Assembly (NCBI GenBank): GCA_043815185.1
Contig: JBDRJF010000024.1
Span: 128,533 to 192,532 of the forward strand
DNA: 64,000 bases
Origin: Candidatus Omnitrophota bacterium
Lineage (GTDB): Bacteria; Omnitrophota; Gorgyraeia; Duberdicusellales; 4484-171
Direction: 5' to 3'
Positions 5,463 through 60,019 of the stretch are shown here, in pieces. The position numbers and the translations under genes are program-made. The stretch's first letter is position 1. Each line of letters opens with the position of its first letter. The notes under the pieces are model-generated. The model ran no database searches. It saw only the letters and a program-made list of their open reading frames with translations, and had not been told where the DNA came from.

Positions 5463-6590
5463 GTGGAAACAGAAGCATTTGCTATAGCCTTTAGTGAACG
5501 GCTCCAGGCAGAAGCGATTAAGGAAGTTTCCTTAAAAATAAAATTAATCTTTCCTAAAAAGATCGATTATCTGATTATTTTATCCACGCCTGATTATCAC
5601 CCTGCAAATATATTAAAGACCGTAAATCTTACTCTGAAACCAAGACGGATTTTAGGAATACAATCTCCCTTTTTAATCTTTGAAGATAAGCTAATCACAA
5701 AAGGCATTGTTGTCTGTTGCATAAACAAAGAAGGAGTTGAATTCACCGAAGCTTTCTCTAAAGCAACAGGCGCTCAAGAAATCGAATCTTTCCTGATTTC
5801 TTCATTCAAAAAGTTAAGAAGACAAGATTACGCTTTCTTCTCCTTTATCTCTTCTCAAATTGACCCCACTGCCTATTTAAGAGGAGTAAGGCTGGCTCTG
5901 GGTAGATTTTTTGAGCTCTTAGGGTGTGGCTTCACAAAGAAATATTCATATCATAACTCCCAGATCATAAATAATGCTCCTAATGAAGGATTAATGAATA
6001 TTGCCATAAAAGGACTGCGGGTACGTTCATTGAGGTTAGGGGGGTATGTGCCCTTGGGTAAACCCTTCACTATTACTAAAACCACTCCCAACCGAGATGT
6101 GATTATAGAAATAAACCACCAGCCGGCGATAAATATCTACCAACACTACCTGGAAGAAAAATTTGACCTCTTTATAAAAAACCACCTTTTTGCTTTCTAC
6201 CCCTTAGGAATCAGCACTGGGGGCTCTTTAAGGCTTATTAATATTCTTGACCGGTTGGAGGATGGATCTTTAATCTGTAGGGGCGAAGCAAGGGAGGGAG
6301 GGATCGGATATGTTATGTTCCTTGATGCTGCCGTTCCCTTAGAAAGGTTAAAAGACAAATTAGCCCCTCTAAGAAACAATAGACAAGGGCTAACTTTTGT
6401 TATAAACTCTTTAACAAGAAAAAAAACTTTGGGAGAGAGTGCTAAGCAGGAAATCGTTTCGATAAAGAAGACTTTGGGCGATAACTCTAAGGTGATTGGA
6501 CTATATACTGATTATTCTTTTGTTTCCGATAAAGAAACCGGAAACATTGATATCGAAACCGGCAATCTCCTCATAACTACGTGGGAATAA
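5463..6590 (+). CDS. FIST-domain sensory protein
   Basis: 375 aa with a GTG start 10 nt after AGGAG. Size and layout resemble FIST_N/FIST_C, and it sits directly upstream of a histidine kinase. Confidence 0.5.
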   Translation: METEAFAIAFSERLQAEAIKEVSLKIKLIFPKKIDYLIILSTPDYHPANILKTVNLTLKPRRILGIQSPFLIFEDKLITKGIVVCCINKEGVEFTEAFSKATGAQEIESFLISSFKKLRRQDYAFFSFISSQIDPTAYLRGVRLALGRFFELLGCGFTKKYSYHNSQIINNAPNEGLMNIAIKGLRVRSLRLGGYVPLGKPFTITKTTPNRDVIIEINHQPAINIYQHYLEEKFDLFIKNHLFAFYPLGISTGGSLRLINILDRLEDGSLICRGEAREGGIGYVMFLDAAVPLERLKDKLAPLRNNRQGLTFVINSLTRKKTLGESAKQEIVSIKKTLGDNSKVIGLYTDYSFVSDKETGNIDIETGNLLITTWE

Positions 6591-15405: not shown

Positions 15406-15628
15406 AATACTCTACCATAAGTTAAACAAAAAACCAATAAAAAACCCCACCTTTCATCCGTTACAGGCAATTGCTATCAATCCCTCGCTAGACAAGTGGG
15501 CACCGCATCATTACCGACCAAACGATAAGAGATATTGGCTCCCTATTAAGGGTGTTGGTTGTAGCACTCTTACCTGCTGACGCAATAGGCAGGGTTTATT
15601 TTCCCCTTGTTGTCTTCAGGTTAAACTT

Positions 15629-51614: not shown

Positions 51615-54244
<2,630 letters not shown>

Positions 54245-55348: not shown

Positions 55349-55442
55349 AGTAGTATTAGTAGTAAGCGTTGTGAGTTTTGTTAAGAAGTGAATATTCTAC
55401 CAGAACCAAAGCTAAAAATAAATGTTTTATTCACAAACCTCT
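55349..55442. promoter_or_regulatory. dnaA-dnaN spacer with DnaA-box-like 9-mers
   Basis: TTATTCACA at 55427-55435, plus weaker inverted matches agtgaatat (55387-55395) and tgtgagttt. Confidence 0.4.
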
Positions 55443-56777: not shown

Positions 56778-56785
56778 TTTAGTGA

Positions 56786-56814
56786 AGATTCACAAAATTC
56801 ACAACTTATTCACA
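56786..56814. promoter_or_regulatory. Three direct DnaA-box-like 9-mers in the dnaA/rpmH divergent spacer
   Basis: agATTCACA (56786-56794), aaATTCACA (56795-56803) and TTATTCACA (56806-56814), compared with the TTATCCACA consensus. Confidence 0.55.
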
Positions 56815-56875
56815 CCCAACAAGCGAGGCGGAAATAATTATACCGCAATAAATTTTCTTTGCAACATTTTTATGG

Positions 56876-56903
56876 TTGACACAAGGAAAAGATATGTTAA
56901 AAT
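56876..56903 (+). promoter_or_regulatory. rpmH promoter (TTGACA, 16 nt spacer, TGtTAAAAT)
   Basis: ttgaca caaggaaaagatatgt taaaat. The -10 element ends 7 nt before the rpmH ATG. Confidence 0.55.
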
Positions 56904-56910
56904 TTCATCT

Positions 56911-57048
56911 ATGAAAAAGAATATCAAAACACCCACCAAACTAAAAGGGAAAAAAAAGAAAGGATTCCGGGCCCGGATGGCAAGTGCTGGCGGCAAGAAA
57001 GTCATAAAGCGCAGAAGGAAAAAAGGCCGGAAAAAGCTCAGTTTATGA
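56911..57048 (+). CDS. rpmH: 50S ribosomal protein L34
   Basis: 45 aa reading MKKNIKTPTKLKGKKKKGFRARMASAGGKKVIKRRRKKGRKKLSL, the inner ATG of ORF 56707..57048. Confidence 0.9.
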   Translation: MKKNIKTPTKLKGKKKKGFRARMASAGGKKVIKRRRKKGRKKLSL

Positions 57049-57251
57049 GAAAGGTAGTGCTCTTTTTTTTAAGGCTTTATCGTTCAGTGTCCGGGGTATT
57101 TCCCGGCCGTTGTATCTACTTTCCTACCTGTTCCCAATATTCTCAACAAGCTTTTTTACACTACCCTTTTTTTAAAGCTTTGAAACTTAGCTTAATTCGC
57201 CTCCTCCGCTGCAACCCTTTTGCCAAGGGGGGGATTGACCTTTTAAAATAA
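57045..57251 (+). CDS. yidD: Membrane protein insertion efficiency factor YidD
   Basis: 68 aa with CIYFPTCSQYSQQA..RCNPFAKGGIDLL. Its ATG overlaps the rpmH stop (ATGA). Confidence 0.85.
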   Translation: MRKVVLFFLRLYRSVSGVFPGRCIYFPTCSQYSQQAFLHYPFFKALKLSLIRLLRCNPFAKGGIDLLK

Positions 57252-58705
57252 TGATGGAAAAGCGGTTTTTCTTAGCTTTTGTTGTAACTTTAGTTTTTTT
57301 TGTAATCTATTCCCAGCTGGTTGCACGATTCATGCCGCAACCAGTTCCTCTACAAGGAGATAGAAAAGAATATTCCCGGGAAGACCAAGGCTCGCTACAG
57401 CCTGGACAAATTTCTTCCCAGCCTTCCCCTTTAATCATAGAAGAACCAGCTGAATCGATTGATTTCCCTCAAGCAGTCATAGGTAATTTTGTTATAACAT
57501 ACTCTCCTTTAGGTGGTTACATAAAAAGTATCGCTATCGGTGATCAAGCCAGTGAACTTCCTTTTCAGAATATTGGTTTTTTGCCTCAAGACCAGGGTAA
57601 ACAATTCACTGCCAATATCAGCGATAAAGGAATTGAATTTATTGGGCCGGGTGACCAGCGCAAAGCATTTGTCTTTGAGGGCTATAGCTTAGGAATAACT
57701 CTTAATCCTCCACCAGTTGAACCGCTAGTTCTGTTCTCGAACTCTTTACACCCCAATATGTTAGACCAAAGATATCAGGAAATTTTTTATTCTCGGGGGC
57801 AAGTCATAAAAAGAAGCTCAGCACAAAAAATGAAAGATAATACTTATAGCAGTGTTGAATTCGCCGGAGCCCGGGATCGCTATTATTGTTTTTCATTACT
57901 CAAAGGGAACTATAAATTCAAGTGGTTAAAAGACAAGGAAAAAGGGCACTTGTATCTCTTTTCTCCGCCGGAGCAAATTTTAGTTTATGTTGGGCCTCAA
58001 CTTAACAAAGAGCTAAAACCATTTGGGCTAGAGGGGGTTATCTACTATGGTTTCTTCCATGCCATTGGTGTGGGGATGATAAAACTTCTCTACTTTTTTT
58101 ACTTTCTGACCAAAAATTGGGGTTTAAGCATTGTTTTCTTCTCCGTCTCAGTTTCTTTGCTCCTCTTCCCCTTTACATCTAAGAGTACTGTAGCTATGCG
58201 GAAAATGCAGCAGATTCAGCCGGAAGTCGAAGCCATAAAAGCCAAGTACAAGGATAATCCTCAGAAGTTACAAAAAGAAACCATTGAATTATATCGAAAA
58301 TACAAGATAAATCCTTTGGGCGGGTGTTTGCCGTTGTTATTTCAGCTTCCGGTAATTATGGCTTTTTACCAGATTATTTTTCGTTTTGTAGAGTTAAGAG
58401 GCGCTCATTTCTTATGGATTAAAGATCTTTCTCAGCCGGATCGCTTTTGCAAACTCCCCTTCCCTGGCCCCTTAGGTTACTTGAATCTCCTCCCGATTTT
58501 TTTAGTGGCTATAGGGCTTGTGCAGCAAAAAATTACTACCTCCTCCTCCGCTGCTCCGTCGCAACAGAAATCAATGGGGCTGTTTTTTACAGTATTTATC
58601 GGAGTTATTTTTTACACCTTCCCTTCAGCCCTAACCCTGTATTGGCTTATCCAGAATTTATTTACCTTGTCTCATCAAGCCCATCTAGCCCGAAACAAGA
58701 CCTAA
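57251..58705 (+). CDS. yidC: Membrane protein insertase YidC
   Basis: 484 aa with an N-terminal TM helix, a periplasmic domain and the conserved core MRKMQQIQPEVEAIKAKYKDNPQKLQKETIELYRKYKINPLGGCLP. Confidence 0.92.
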   Translation: MMEKRFFLAFVVTLVFFVIYSQLVARFMPQPVPLQGDRKEYSREDQGSLQPGQISSQPSPLIIEEPAESIDFPQAVIGNFVITYSPLGGYIKSIAIGDQASELPFQNIGFLPQDQGKQFTANISDKGIEFIGPGDQRKAFVFEGYSLGITLNPPPVEPLVLFSNSLHPNMLDQRYQEIFYSRGQVIKRSSAQKMKDNTYSSVEFAGARDRYYCFSLLKGNYKFKWLKDKEKGHLYLFSPPEQILVYVGPQLNKELKPFGLEGVIYYGFFHAIGVGMIKLLYFFYFLTKNWGLSIVFFSVSVSLLLFPFTSKSTVAMRKMQQIQPEVEAIKAKYKDNPQKLQKETIELYRKYKINPLGGCLPLLFQLPVIMAFYQIIFRFVELRGAHFLWIKDLSQPDRFCKLPFPGPLGYLNLLPIFLVAIGLVQQKITTSSSAAPSQQKSMGLFFTVFIGVIFYTFPSALTLYWLIQNLFTLSHQAHLARNKT

Positions 58706-58711
58706 ATACAG

Positions 58712-59184
58712 GTTTCCACGTGAAAACGGACAGGTTTCCACGTGAAAACGGACAGATTTTCACGTGAAAACGGAGAGGTTTCCACGTGAAAACACTTAAG
58801 TGGAAACATTCACTATAGCAACACAAAGAGTCCACAAGTCCAATTCTCAAAACGCAAAACAAGCCAGGCTTAACTAACCAAAATTAGGTAATTTTTTTGG
58901 TTATTTTCACGTGAAAACACAAAGAACTTGACAATCGCTCTTTTTTTTATTACAATTAGGTAAAGCTTCAGCCTTTGGCGCATAAACTAGTAGAATATTG
59001 CGAATCTAGTTGCTGGAGTAAATCACTAGCTGATATTAAAACAGGTGTGGAAACATTAATTTTGTCAATTGCTCTGAGGGTAAAGCGGTTTTCACGTGTC
59101 TCTCCCCTGAGAATAAAAGTACTGGGGAGATCCATGTGGAAACCTCTATCATTCCATAAGAGCACGAGGTTTTCACGTGAAAAC
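58712..59184. promoter_or_regulatory. Array of six 16-bp parS-like palindromes plus four half sites
   Basis: RTTTYCACGTGAAAAC occurs at 58712, 58734, 58756, 58778 (exact 22-bp spacing), 58903 and 59169; the last is the perfect palindrome GTTTTCACGTGAAAAC. Half sites lie at 58800, 59047, 59088 and 59136. Confidence 0.6.
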
Positions 59185-59206: not shown

Positions 59207-60019
59207 ATGGGCAAAATAATCGGCATTTGTAATCAAAAAGGTGGTACTGGCAAGACGACCACAGCGATTAATTTAAGCTCGTTTTTAGGCCTGGGGAATA
59301 AAAAAACTTTACTTATTGACATGGATCCTCAAGGTAATGCTACTTCCGGAGTAGGATTTGACAGCCAAGGAAAAAACTCTATTTACGATGTAATTATGGA
59401 CAAAGCTCTTTTGTCCGAAAGCATTTATCCTACTAAATGGCCGCAATTACAGCTTATCCCTTCAGACATTTCCCTTACCGGCGGAGAAGTTGAATTAGTC
59501 AATACCGAGAATAGAGAATTGCGGTTAAGTCAAAGGTTGGAGGAGATCAAGAATGATTTTTCCTACATTATTATTGATGCGCCGCCTTCTTTAGGCCTGC
59601 TTACGGTAAATGTCTTAGCCGCTTCGGATAGTTTGGTTATTCCGGTACAATGCGAATACTATGCTTTAGAGGGAGTTTCCAAATTAATCAATACTGTAGA
59701 GCTAATTCGTGAAAGATTAAATCCTTCATTAGAGATTGAAGGGGTTCTTCTCACCATGGCTGATTTTCGTACCCGGCTTACTTTGCAGGTGATAGAGGAG
59801 GTGCGAAGGTTTTTTCAGCAAAAAACACTTGATGTTATTGTACCTCGGAATATAAAACTTGCTGAGGCTCCTAGTTTTGGTAAGCCGATCTTTTTTTACG
59901 ATCCGGCTTGCGTGGGTGCTAAAGCCTACTTAAATTTAGCTCAAAAAATATTAAAGGAGAATATAGAACTTAACCAATTAGCAAGTCCGGTTGACAGAGC
60001 ACCTTCTCTCACCGGATAA
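59207..60019 (+). CDS. parA: Chromosome partitioning ATPase ParA/Soj
   Basis: 270 aa with the deviant Walker A NQKGGTGKTT. Confidence 0.92.
   Translation: MGKIIGICNQKGGTGKTTTAINLSSFLGLGNKKTLLIDMDPQGNATSGVGFDSQGKNSIYDVIMDKALLSESIYPTKWPQLQLIPSDISLTGGEVELVNTENRELRLSQRLEEIKNDFSYIIIDAPPSLGLLTVNVLAASDSLVIPVQCEYYALEGVSKLINTVELIRERLNPSLEIEGVLLTMADFRTRLTLQVIEEVRRFFQQKTLDVIVPRNIKLAEAPSFGKPIFFYDPACVGAKAYLNLAQKILKENIELNQLASPVDRAPSLTG

What the first reader, a model, noticed from the sequence alone, without database searches (positions are those of the whole stretch)
58712..59184. Dense array of parS-like 16-bp palindromes, four in exact 22-bp phase, immediately upstream of parA
There are six full copies of RTTTYCACGTGAAAAC plus four half sites within 470 bp between yidC and parA. 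The inner 12 bp TTTCACGTGAAA of three copies equal the core of canonical parS (TGTTTCACGTGAAACA). The copy at 59169-59184 is a perfect palindrome 22 nt before the parA ATG. The first four copies are embedded in exact 22-bp direct repeats (caggtttccacgtgaaaacgga), which is two helical turns. Chromosomal parS sites are usually dispersed single copies, whereas a phased tandem array looks more like a plasmid centromere or iterons. The half site GTTTCCAC(A/G) also resembles a DnaA box, so this could be part of a second or bipartite origin module. All small ORFs predicted here are probably spurious.
Basis: partly seen in the sequence, partly recalled or inferred. Interest (0 to 1): 0.6.

Follow-up and report, generated by a model that had tools for sequence, protein, structure and literature searches.

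The report
Variant parS centromere with matching ParB
The repeat array in front of parA is most likely this Omnitrophota bacterium's chromosome-segregation centromere, built from an altered version of the near-universal parS site, and the ParB protein encoded next to it has changed at the amino acid that reads the altered base.

Summary
Six copies of RTTTYCACGTGAAAAC and four half sites lie in the 501-bp yidC-parA gap. Four copies sit in a 22-bp tandem array. There are none elsewhere in the 64 kb, and no canonical parS within 3 mismatches.

The window is the origin region of a Candidatus Omnitrophota chromosome: gyrB-dciA-dnaN-dnaA | rpmH-yidD-yidC-[array]-parA-parB.

The site differs from parS (TGTTTCACGTGAAACA) only in the outer dinucleotide of each arm, TG to GT. 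The adjacent ParB has Lys where other ParBs have Arg173, the residue shown to hydrogen-bond that guanine.

Ten related Omnitrophota loci carry 45 such sites, all in the same gap, with none in 181 kb outside it. Omnitrophota with Arg173 ParB carry canonical parS at the same spot.

I picked further Lys173 ParBs by protein sequence alone: an Elusimicrobia MAG, an unassigned low-GC lineage and soil Gaiellales. Every one carries the same variant site and no canonical parS.

The DnaA-box/second-origin reading fails. Perfect DnaA boxes sit beside dnaA, not in the gap, and the sites travel with parAB rather than with dnaA.

The exact 22-bp phasing is a private tandem duplication. Verdict: a new variant of a known kind. 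ParB binding is inferred, not shown.

The parts
58708..58793 (.). 22-bp tandem array, 3.9 units with consensus ACAGGTTTCCACGTGAAAACGG, holding sites 1-4
   Evidence: TRF; spacing 22/22/22
58712..58727 (.). variant parS site 1, GTTTCCACGTGAAAAC
58734..58749 (.). variant parS site 2, GTTTCCACGTGAAAAC
58756..58771 (.). variant parS site 3, ATTTTCACGTGAAAAC
58778..58793 (.). variant parS site 4, GTTTCCACGTGAAAAC
58800..58807 (-). isolated half site (GTTTCCAC on the - strand)
   Evidence: isolated half sites are almost absent in relatives, so this is probably a decayed copy
58903..58918 (.). variant parS site 5, ATTTTCACGTGAAAAC, ending 9 nt upstream of the -35 hexamer
58928..58956 (+). sigma-70-like promoter TTGACA-17-TACAAT (11 of 12), candidate parAB promoter
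   Evidence: equivalent 11/12 promoters lie inside the gap of L001, L081, L083 and L084 and can be read in L207-L209
59047..59054 (-). isolated half site (GTTTCCAC on the - strand)
59084..59147 (+). long inverted repeat of two half sites (59088-59098 + and 59136-59143 -) flanking a GGGGAGA/TCTCCCC stem; a hairpin if transcribed
   Evidence: I2, 24-nt arms, 79%; RNA fold -33.6 kcal/mol, z = -4.4; the same structure is present in L207
59169..59184 (.). variant parS site 6, perfect palindrome GTTTTCACGTGAAAAC, ending 22 nt before the parA ATG
   Evidence: a site ending 15-46 nt before the ATG is present in all 10 related loci
59207..60019 (+). parA (270 aa Walker-type ATPase)
60036..60863 (+). 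parB (275 aa) with ParB_N, HTH_ParB and ParB_C domains; specificity positions 173/179/184/201 read K-A-K-T, and 202 is Q

Best explanation
The array is the chromosomal centromere, a cluster of ParB loading sites, of an Omnitrophota bacterium. It is built from a lineage-specific variant of parS, (c)GTTTYCACGTGRAAAC(g). This keeps the inner 12 bp of canonical parS but swaps the outer dinucleotide of each arm from TG to GT.

The cognate binder is the ParB encoded 0.85 kb downstream. In this ParB, Arg173, the residue that contacts guanine 1 of parS in other ParBs, is replaced by Lys. In this clade Gly201 and His202 are also replaced, by Thr/Ser and Gln.

By analogy with characterised ParABS systems, ParB dimers would nucleate on the six sites, close as CTP-dependent clamps and spread. 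The resulting partition complex would sit about 2 kb from dnaA and be moved by ParA. These steps are inferred.

The sites bracket the parAB promoter, and one always lies just 5' of the parA start codon. The cluster therefore probably also lets ParB feed back on parAB expression. This part is less certain.

The exact 22-bp x4 phasing is a recent local tandem duplication that raises site number. It is not a conserved design.
For: **Site statistics and location**
- 12 strand-hits against 0.22 expected, confined to the gap.
- No canonical parS within 3 mismatches in 64 kb.
- GC skew changes sign at 56-60 kb, and dnaA, dnaN, dciA and gyrB lie alongside.

**Conservation**
- Ten Omnitrophota loci (ParB 65-100% identical) hold 45 sites in 4.6 kb of yidC|parA gap and 0 in 181 kb outside it.
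- The DNA between the sites is not conserved.

**Positional replacement**
- Omnitrophota with Arg173 ParB carry canonical TGTTTCACGTGAAACA (L003) or TGTTCCACGTGAAACA (L027) just 5' of parA.

**Covariation**
- All 7 Lys173 loci have variant sites and no canonical site.
- None of 64 Arg173 loci has a variant site, and 45 of them have canonical parS.
- All 120 closest ParB clusters are K173 plus T/S201 plus Q202.
- The alignment to Spo0J, Noc and Myxococcus ParB structures is ungapped over 94 residues. K aligns with R in ParB and Q in Noc.

**Published mechanism (PMC7383237)**
- R173 hydrogen-bonds parS guanine 1.
- R173 was invariable among parS-binding variants.
- Changing it to Q re-targets Noc to adenine 1.

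**Prediction test**
- Lys173 ParBs chosen by protein sequence alone were an Elusimicrobia MAG and an unassigned low-GC lineage.
- Each has two perfect GTTTTCACGTGAAAAC sites beside parA and no canonical parS.

**A further phylum**
- 120 of 120 Gaiellales-type ParBs are K173.
- These genomes carry the same site about 9 kb from parB and no canonical parS.
- In rough NJ trees the K173 lineages are not monophyletic.

**Linkage to parAB**
- The sites move with parAB in L081, where parAB is not next to dnaA.
Against: - No binding, ChIP or segregation data exist. ParB as the binder is inferred from covariation and adjacency.
- The 10 Omnitrophota loci belong to one clade, so they count as one evolutionary event.
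- Independence of the K173 lineages rests on rough NJ trees. The P0265 lineage may share the Omnitrophota event.
- Whole-genome site distribution is unknown. Only 64 kb here and at most 21 kb per relative were read.
- Lys could in principle still contact guanine, and Arg173 ParBs tolerate some parS mismatches. Orthogonality to canonical parS is therefore unproven.
- The role of T/S201 and Q202 is unexplained, since Gaiellales, Elusimicrobia and P0265 keep G201/H202.
- The autoregulation idea rests only on consensus promoter matches. One locus, L082, has no match.
Confidence: 0.8

Rival explanations
1. The palindromes are DnaA-box pairs or iterons of oriC, or of a second or bipartite origin module upstream of parAB.
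For: - The half site GTTTCCACA loosely resembles a DnaA box. The window has three such half sites ending in A or T.
- The region lies at the GC-skew switch.
- There is a precedent for a DnaA-box cluster upstream of gidAB-parAB (oriCII) in Pseudomonas (PMC13438810, listed).
Against: - The half site has 2-3 mismatches to TTATNCACA.
- The gap has no box at 0 mismatches and only one at 1 mismatch, and the window as a whole shows no enrichment (53 against 51.9 expected).
- Perfect TTATYCACA boxes are conserved next to dnaA in 6 of 6 loci and absent from all six yidC|parA gaps. DnaA therefore appears to keep its canonical box.
- Isolated half sites are not conserved in relatives, whereas the full 16-20 bp dyad symmetry is. 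That symmetry fits a dimeric HTH protein.
- The sites follow parAB when it is away from dnaA (L081).
- In Gaiellales the site is single and 13 kb from dnaA.
Confidence: 0.03
2. The sites are operators for some other dimeric transcription factor that controls parAB, not for ParB.
For: The sites bracket a strong consensus promoter, and one always sits just 5' of the parA ATG. CACGTG-centred palindromes are bound by many protein families.
Against: - The only factor found to covary with the site across Omnitrophota, Elusimicrobia and Gaiellales is ParB residue 173. That residue reads the very base that changed.
- The site is canonical parS apart from that dinucleotide.
- It replaces canonical parS at the same position in related Omnitrophota.
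- In Gaiellales the site is not at the parAB promoter.
Confidence: 0.05
3. ParB does bind the sites, but the cluster serves mainly as an autoregulatory operator (KorB-like or type Ib-like repression of parAB). The segregation centromere would then lie at other sites elsewhere in the genome.
For: - A site ends 9-11 nt upstream of the -35 hexamer in the window, L207, L208 and L209.
- A site starts 8-10 nt after the -10 hexamer in L001, L002, L083, L208 and L209.
- The genomes were not read in full.
Against: - No other site was found in the 63.5 kb of origin-proximal sequence here, nor in 181 kb of flanks in relatives.
- In characterised systems a single parS is enough both to load ParB and to act as centromere (established knowledge), so the two roles are not exclusive.
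Confidence: 0.1

Closest known systems
Canonical chromosomal ParABS: ParB/Spo0J with parS TGTTNCACGTGAAACA (B. subtilis, Caulobacter, Thermus, Myxococcus)
   Same: - The parA-parB operon and the ParB domain set are the same: ParB_N with GxxRxxA, HTH_ParB and ParB_C.
- The location is origin-proximal.
- The site is a 16-bp dyad with an identical inner 12 bp (TTTCACGTGAAA). Position 4 allows T or C, as in canonical sites.
   Different: - The outer dinucleotide of each arm is GT instead of TG, often extended to cGT...ACg. This is 4 mismatches in 16, so consensus searches miss it.
- ParB has Lys rather than Arg at 173, and in this clade T/S201 and Q202.
- All known copies are packed into one intergenic gap, four of them in tandem.
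Noc-NBS (Bacillota): the characterised natural specificity switch within the chromosomal ParB family (Jalal et al. 2020, PMC7383237)
   Same: The logic is the same. A change at residue 173 (R to Q in Noc, R to K here) is paired with a change of the base at half-site position 1 (G to A in NBS, G to T here).
   Different: - There is no gene duplication. The single ParB itself has changed and stays with parA.
- Position 6 of the site is unchanged (A), and residue 201 is T/S/G rather than R.
- No NBS sites are present.
- The change recurs in several phyla rather than occurring once in Bacillota.
Replicon-specific parS/ParB pairs of secondary chromosomes and plasmids, and the tandem centromere sopC of plasmid F (12 x 43-bp repeats, each with a 16-bp inverted repeat); from established knowledge
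   Same: A diverged palindrome is recognised by a cognate ParB. Copies are clustered or tandem next to the par operon.
   Different: - This is the main chromosome origin region, with dnaA, dnaN and gyrB adjacent.
- ParA is the short chromosomal type.
- The tandem arrangement is not conserved among relatives.
P. aeruginosa ParB binding to half-parS heptamers (Kawalek et al. 2018, cited within PMC7383237; recalled from knowledge)
   Same: The window also has isolated half sites (GTTTYCAC) near the full sites.
   Different: The half sites here are few and not conserved in relatives. They are probably decayed copies.

Membership tests
Chromosomal ParABS centromere (parS/ParB) | Adjacent parA-parB operon; ParB with an N-terminal CTP-binding domain (GxxRxxA), an HTH DNA-binding domain and a C-terminal dimerisation domain | tested here: met
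   TIGR00180 at 173 bits. PF02195, PF17762 and PF23552 are present. GERRYQAA keeps the G..R..A pattern. PDB relatives 1vz0, 7bnk, 6sdk and 6t1f match at E values down to 1e-49.
Chromosomal ParABS centromere (parS/ParB) | Origin-proximal location | tested here: met
   The GC-skew sign change falls at 56-60 kb. The dnaA start is 1.9 kb from the array.
Chromosomal ParABS centromere (parS/ParB) | Site matches the consensus TGTTNCACGTGAAACA | tested here: not met
   There are 0 matches at up to 3 mismatches in 64 kb. Every copy differs at both outer dinucleotides, while the inner 12 bp is identical in 3 of 6 copies.
Chromosomal ParABS centromere (parS/ParB) | Arg at specificity position 173, which contacts guanine 1 | tested here: not met
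   The residue is Lys in the window and in all 120 closest clusters. In a diverse sample, 135 of 141 representatives have Arg.
Chromosomal ParABS centromere (parS/ParB) | ParB binds the site and loads as a CTP-dependent clamp; ParA-driven segregation | not testable with these tools
   Supported only indirectly, by the covariation and the successful prediction test.
Noc-NBS nucleoid occlusion | NBS sites TATTTCCCGGGAAATA and specificity residues Q-K-K-R | tested here: not met
   The window has no NBS at up to 2 mismatches. Its residues are K-A-K-T, whereas the Bacillota controls in the same scan read QKKR.
oriC DnaA-box cluster / iterons | Several DnaA boxes (TTATNCACA, up to 1 mismatch) clustered in the element | tested here: not met
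   The gap has one 1-mismatch hit and no perfect box. Perfect boxes lie at 55427 and 56806, flanking dnaA.
oriC DnaA-box cluster / iterons | The element is linked to dnaA/oriC rather than to parAB across genomes | tested here: not met
   In L081 the sites stay with parAB and no dnaA lies within 9 kb. Gaiellales have a single site 9 kb beyond parB.
Plasmid-type tandem-repeat centromere (sopC-like) | A conserved head-to-tail array of repeat units, each carrying one ParB site | tested here: inconclusive
   The window has such an array (period 22, 3.9 copies). Nine related loci do not. Their closest pairs are 23-36 bp apart with no fixed period.

The most novel reading that the evidence does not exclude
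Arg173 to Lys in ParB is a recurrent, convergent specificity switch. It has created a second, orthogonal class of chromosomal centromere, the 'GT-parS' GTTTYCACGTGRAAAC, in at least three phyla: Omnitrophota, Elusimicrobiota and Actinomycetota/Gaiellales. On this reading K173 ParBs do not use canonical parS and R173 ParBs do not use GT-parS. One residue-base pair would then be enough to re-target a centromere otherwise regarded as universal.
Probability: 0.5. Interest if true: 0.75.

Novelty: new variant of a known kind. Interest (0 to 1): 0.62.

Why it matters
parS is one of the most conserved protein-binding DNA sites in bacteria, and genome annotation and origin-mapping tools look for its consensus. 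These lineages escape such searches, so they would be scored as lacking parS.

The pairing of a single base change with a change in the one residue known to read that base, seen in several unrelated phyla, is a natural experiment on how DNA-binding specificity evolves. It complements the ParB-to-Noc story and can be tested directly with purified proteins and R173K/K173R swaps.

If the two classes prove orthogonal, the pair would also add to ParB/parS-based DNA-labelling tools.

The window itself shows how fluid centromere copy number is. The sites duplicate, move and decay within one intergenic region while their sequence stays fixed.

Tried and rejected
- **DnaA-box or iteron reading.** Tested with TTATNCACA scans in the window and in six related loci, and rejected.
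- **Non-coding RNA in the gap.** Rfam at gathering thresholds finds nothing between 58.7 and 59.2 kb.
- **Intrinsic terminator.** The one 'terminator-like' hit at 58749-58712 is simply two adjacent palindromes.
- **Literature.** No paper in the held library contains the variant sequence, or links Omnitrophota or Gaiellales with parS.
- **Technical dead ends.** Three regex attempts returned empty tables because of an off-by-one error in the motif spacing. They were corrected.
- **Clustering.** tblastx single-linkage clustering of the high-GC metagenome hits chained into one uninformative component. It was replaced by tblastn with the genes of L205.
- **Intermediate genotype.** P0249 (R173, S201, Q202) was meant to separate the roles of residues 173 and 201/202. 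Its only contig is 2.5 kb and shows just a degenerate canonical-type site, so the result is inconclusive.
- **Unexplained metagenome hits.** About 12 of the 80 hits to the 18-mer lie in unrelated contexts, for example next to a Fic-domain gene in L117 and L136. This is roughly what my own rough estimate gives for chance matches in a collection of that size. I did not pursue them.

Full report

Yes. The 501-bp gap between yidC (57251-58705) and parA (59207-60019) holds six copies of RTTTYCACGTGAAAAC. They start at 58712, 58734, 58756, 58778, 58903 and 59169.

The 14-mer core with up to 1 mismatch gives 12 strand-hits against 0.22 expected from dinucleotide shuffles. All lie in the gap and none elsewhere in the 64 kb.

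The first four copies are spaced exactly 22 bp apart. TRF calls one array at 58708-58793, period 22, 3.9 copies, 92% matches and no indels.

Four isolated half sites are present. The last copy is a perfect palindrome ending 22 nt before the parA ATG.

**2. Where are we?**

NCBIfam and Pfam identify the gene order as gyrB, dciA (91 aa, PF05258), dnaN and dnaA on the minus strand. On the plus strand come rpmH, yidD, yidC, the gap, parA, parB and ndk.

GC skew is negative up to about 56 kb, zero across 56-60 kb and positive beyond. This is therefore the replication-origin region.

The closest genomes are Candidatus Omnitrophota MAGs.

**3. What is the site?**

It is not canonical parS. TGTTNCACGTGAAACA has no match within 3 mismatches anywhere in the window.

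Aligned on the shared CACGTG centre, the site differs from parS only in the outer dinucleotide of each arm. Compare T-G-TTTCAC with G-T-TTYCAC. In relatives the dyad often extends to cGTTTYCACGTGRAAACg, or even to 20 bp.

**4. Comparative evidence within Omnitrophota**

Ten loci share the synteny, with ParB 65-100% identical. Together they carry 45 such sites. All lie in the 4.6 kb of yidC|parA gaps and none in the other 181 kb read.

The sequence between the sites is not alignable. Copy number runs from 2 to 6 and the spacing is irregular. The closest pairs are 23, 25, 32 and 36 bp apart. The window's exact 22-bp x4 array is therefore a private tandem duplication.

One site always ends 15-46 nt before the parA ATG.

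In L081, from the 1.82-Mb record CP070807.1, parAB sits beside only a 48-aa yidC fragment and polysaccharide genes, with no dnaA within 9 kb. Three sites still precede parA there.

More distant Omnitrophota carry canonical parS at the same place: L003 has two perfect copies and L027 has one with a single mismatch.

**5. The protein covaries with the site**

Jalal et al. 2020 (PMC7383237) identified four ParB/Noc specificity positions: 173, 179, 184 and 201.
- R173 hydrogen-bonds guanine 1 of parS.
- R173 was 'invariable' among parS-binding variants in their library.
- R to Q re-targets Noc to adenine 1 of NBS.

The window ParB aligns without gaps over 94 residues to the Spo0J, Noc and Myxococcus ParB structures. 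It reads K-A-K-T at these positions, with Q at 202.

My scan recovers QKKR for Noc and R..G for Spo0J in the Bacillota controls, which validates the register.

The contingency over 85 sequences:
- All 7 K173 loci have variant sites and no canonical site.
- None of 64 R173 loci has a variant site, and 45 have canonical parS.

All 120 closest ParB clusters are K173 with T/S201 and Q202. The base that changed is therefore exactly the one read by the residue that changed.

**6. Other lineages, and a prediction test**

A metagenome scan for the 18-mer returned a few Omnitrophota contigs. Unexpectedly, it also returned about 70 soil contigs of roughly 70% GC.

These soil contigs are Gaiellales-type Actinomycetota (names). 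The site there is an AT-rich island just 3' of a histidine-kinase gene, about 9 kb beyond parB. The surrounding origin region reads dnaA | rnpA-yidD-yidC-jag-gidB-parA-parB.

All 120 ParBs of this group read K-R-E/D-G-H, so K173 recurs but with G201/H202 unchanged. No canonical parS is present in L113, L205 or L206.

I then searched 1.84 billion representatives and looked only at residue 173. Among the best 150, 135 have R, 5 have K and 1 has H.

Two of the K173 proteins fall outside the clade. P0356 comes from an Elusimicrobia MAG and P0265 from an unassigned low-GC lineage. Their loci each hold two perfect GTTTTCACGTGAAAAC sites beside parA and no canonical parS.

In rough NJ trees the K173 groups are not monophyletic. 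The Omnitrophota clade nests among R173 Omnitrophota, while the Gaiellales and Elusimicrobia groups sit elsewhere.

**7. The DnaA / second-origin idea**

- Perfect TTATYCACA boxes sit about 30 bp from the dnaA start in the dnaA|rpmH spacer of 6 of 6 loci. In the window there is another in the dnaN|dnaA spacer.
- No yidC|parA gap has a perfect box.
- Isolated half sites are not conserved, whereas the full dyad is.
- The sites follow parAB rather than dnaA.

I reject this reading.

**8. How it most likely works**

Shown by the data:
- site statistics;
- conservation and position;
- covariation with ParB residue 173 across phyla.

Inferred from established ParABS biology:
- K173 ParB dimers nucleate on the six sites;
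- they close as CTP clamps and spread;
- the complex beside oriC is segregated by ParA.

A consensus promoter lies inside the gap at 58928-58956 (11 of 12). Site 5 ends 9 nt upstream of its -35 hexamer. In relatives a site either abuts the -35 hexamer or starts 8-10 nt after the -10 hexamer. ParB autoregulation of parAB is therefore plausible but untested.

**9. Caveats**

- There are no binding data.
- Whole genomes were not read.
- The Omnitrophota loci count as one evolutionary event.
- Independence of the K173 lineages rests on rough trees.
- The role of T/S201 and Q202 is unexplained.

**10. Verdict**

This is a real feature. It works like a parS centromere but fails two defining features of the canonical family: the consensus sequence and Arg173. 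It is best filed as a new variant of a known kind.

Nothing in the searchable literature describes it. It is interesting mainly for the recurrent one-residue, one-base covariation.

Noticed in passing
window 59084-59147; L207 about 1985-2050: A long inverted repeat made of two half sites flanks a G-rich stem. As RNA it folds at -33.6 kcal/mol (z = -4.4). It lies in the presumed parA leader and is conserved in the nearest relative, L207. Its function is unknown. It could be a leader RNA structure or a split palindrome.
   Followed up: partly
L007 5978-5993; L004 about 5849-5864; L037 parB; L214 7165-7180: Other Omnitrophota carry different perfect palindromes just 5' of parA: TGCTCCACGTGGAGCA in L007 and TGCCTGCCGGCAGGCA in L004. 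One ParB has Asn at position 173 (L037). An H173 ParB (P0291) has TTTTTCACGTGAAGAA 8 bp before parA. parS may be diversifying more widely in these phyla.
   Followed up: partly
window parB 60036-60863 (GERRYQAA); P0001-P0120: In the Omnitrophota K173 clade the third arginine of the ParB 'arginine patch' GERRxR is usually Gln, and varies among Q, H, Y, E, L and K. Gaiellales keep GERRWRA. The G..R..A core is retained.
   Followed up: partly
L081 8732-9121 (CP070807.1): In this genome parAB, its sites and a 48-aa remnant of yidC lie next to polysaccharide-synthesis genes rather than the dnaA region. This looks like a rearrangement that moved the centromere module as a unit.
   Followed up: partly
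L085-L164 high-GC loci, e.g. L159 33-75 and L090 3273-3298: In Gaiellales-type contigs the site lies right after a histidine-kinase stop codon. It is often embedded in a longer palindrome whose flanks differ between contigs but stay complementary. It may double as a hairpin or terminator. Some contigs have two sites 28-35 bp apart.
   Followed up: partly
P0249 / L216 138-153: One ParB has R173 but already S201 and Q202, and sits near the K173 clade in a rough tree. It could be an intermediate genotype. Its short contig shows only a degenerate canonical-type site, TCTTTCATGGGAAACA, 9 nt before parA.
   Followed up: partly
window 53969-54244 (-): The conserved 91-aa ORF between dnaN and gyrB is a short DciA (PF05258, 27.3 bits against a cutoff of 24). 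NCBIfam gave no hit for it.
   Followed up: yes
window 56778-57251: rpmH is followed directly by yidD and yidC, with no rnpA between them. Three direct ATTCACA-type DnaA boxes (one a perfect TTATTCACA at 56806) lie in the 134-bp dnaA|rpmH spacer.
   Followed up: partly
window 15440-15598 (-): Rfam finds a 6S RNA (49.5 bits, gathering score 46.4). It also finds eight tRNAs, five of them (one cut off by the window end) clustered at 63.1-64.0 kb just downstream of the par region.
   Followed up: no
L117 13601 and 13650; L136 1560: Contigs of about 61% GC carry the 18-mer next to a Fic-domain gene and an XRE-type HTH gene. No ParA or ParB is detectable in the stretches held. These may be chance matches or a different use of the motif.
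   Followed up: partly
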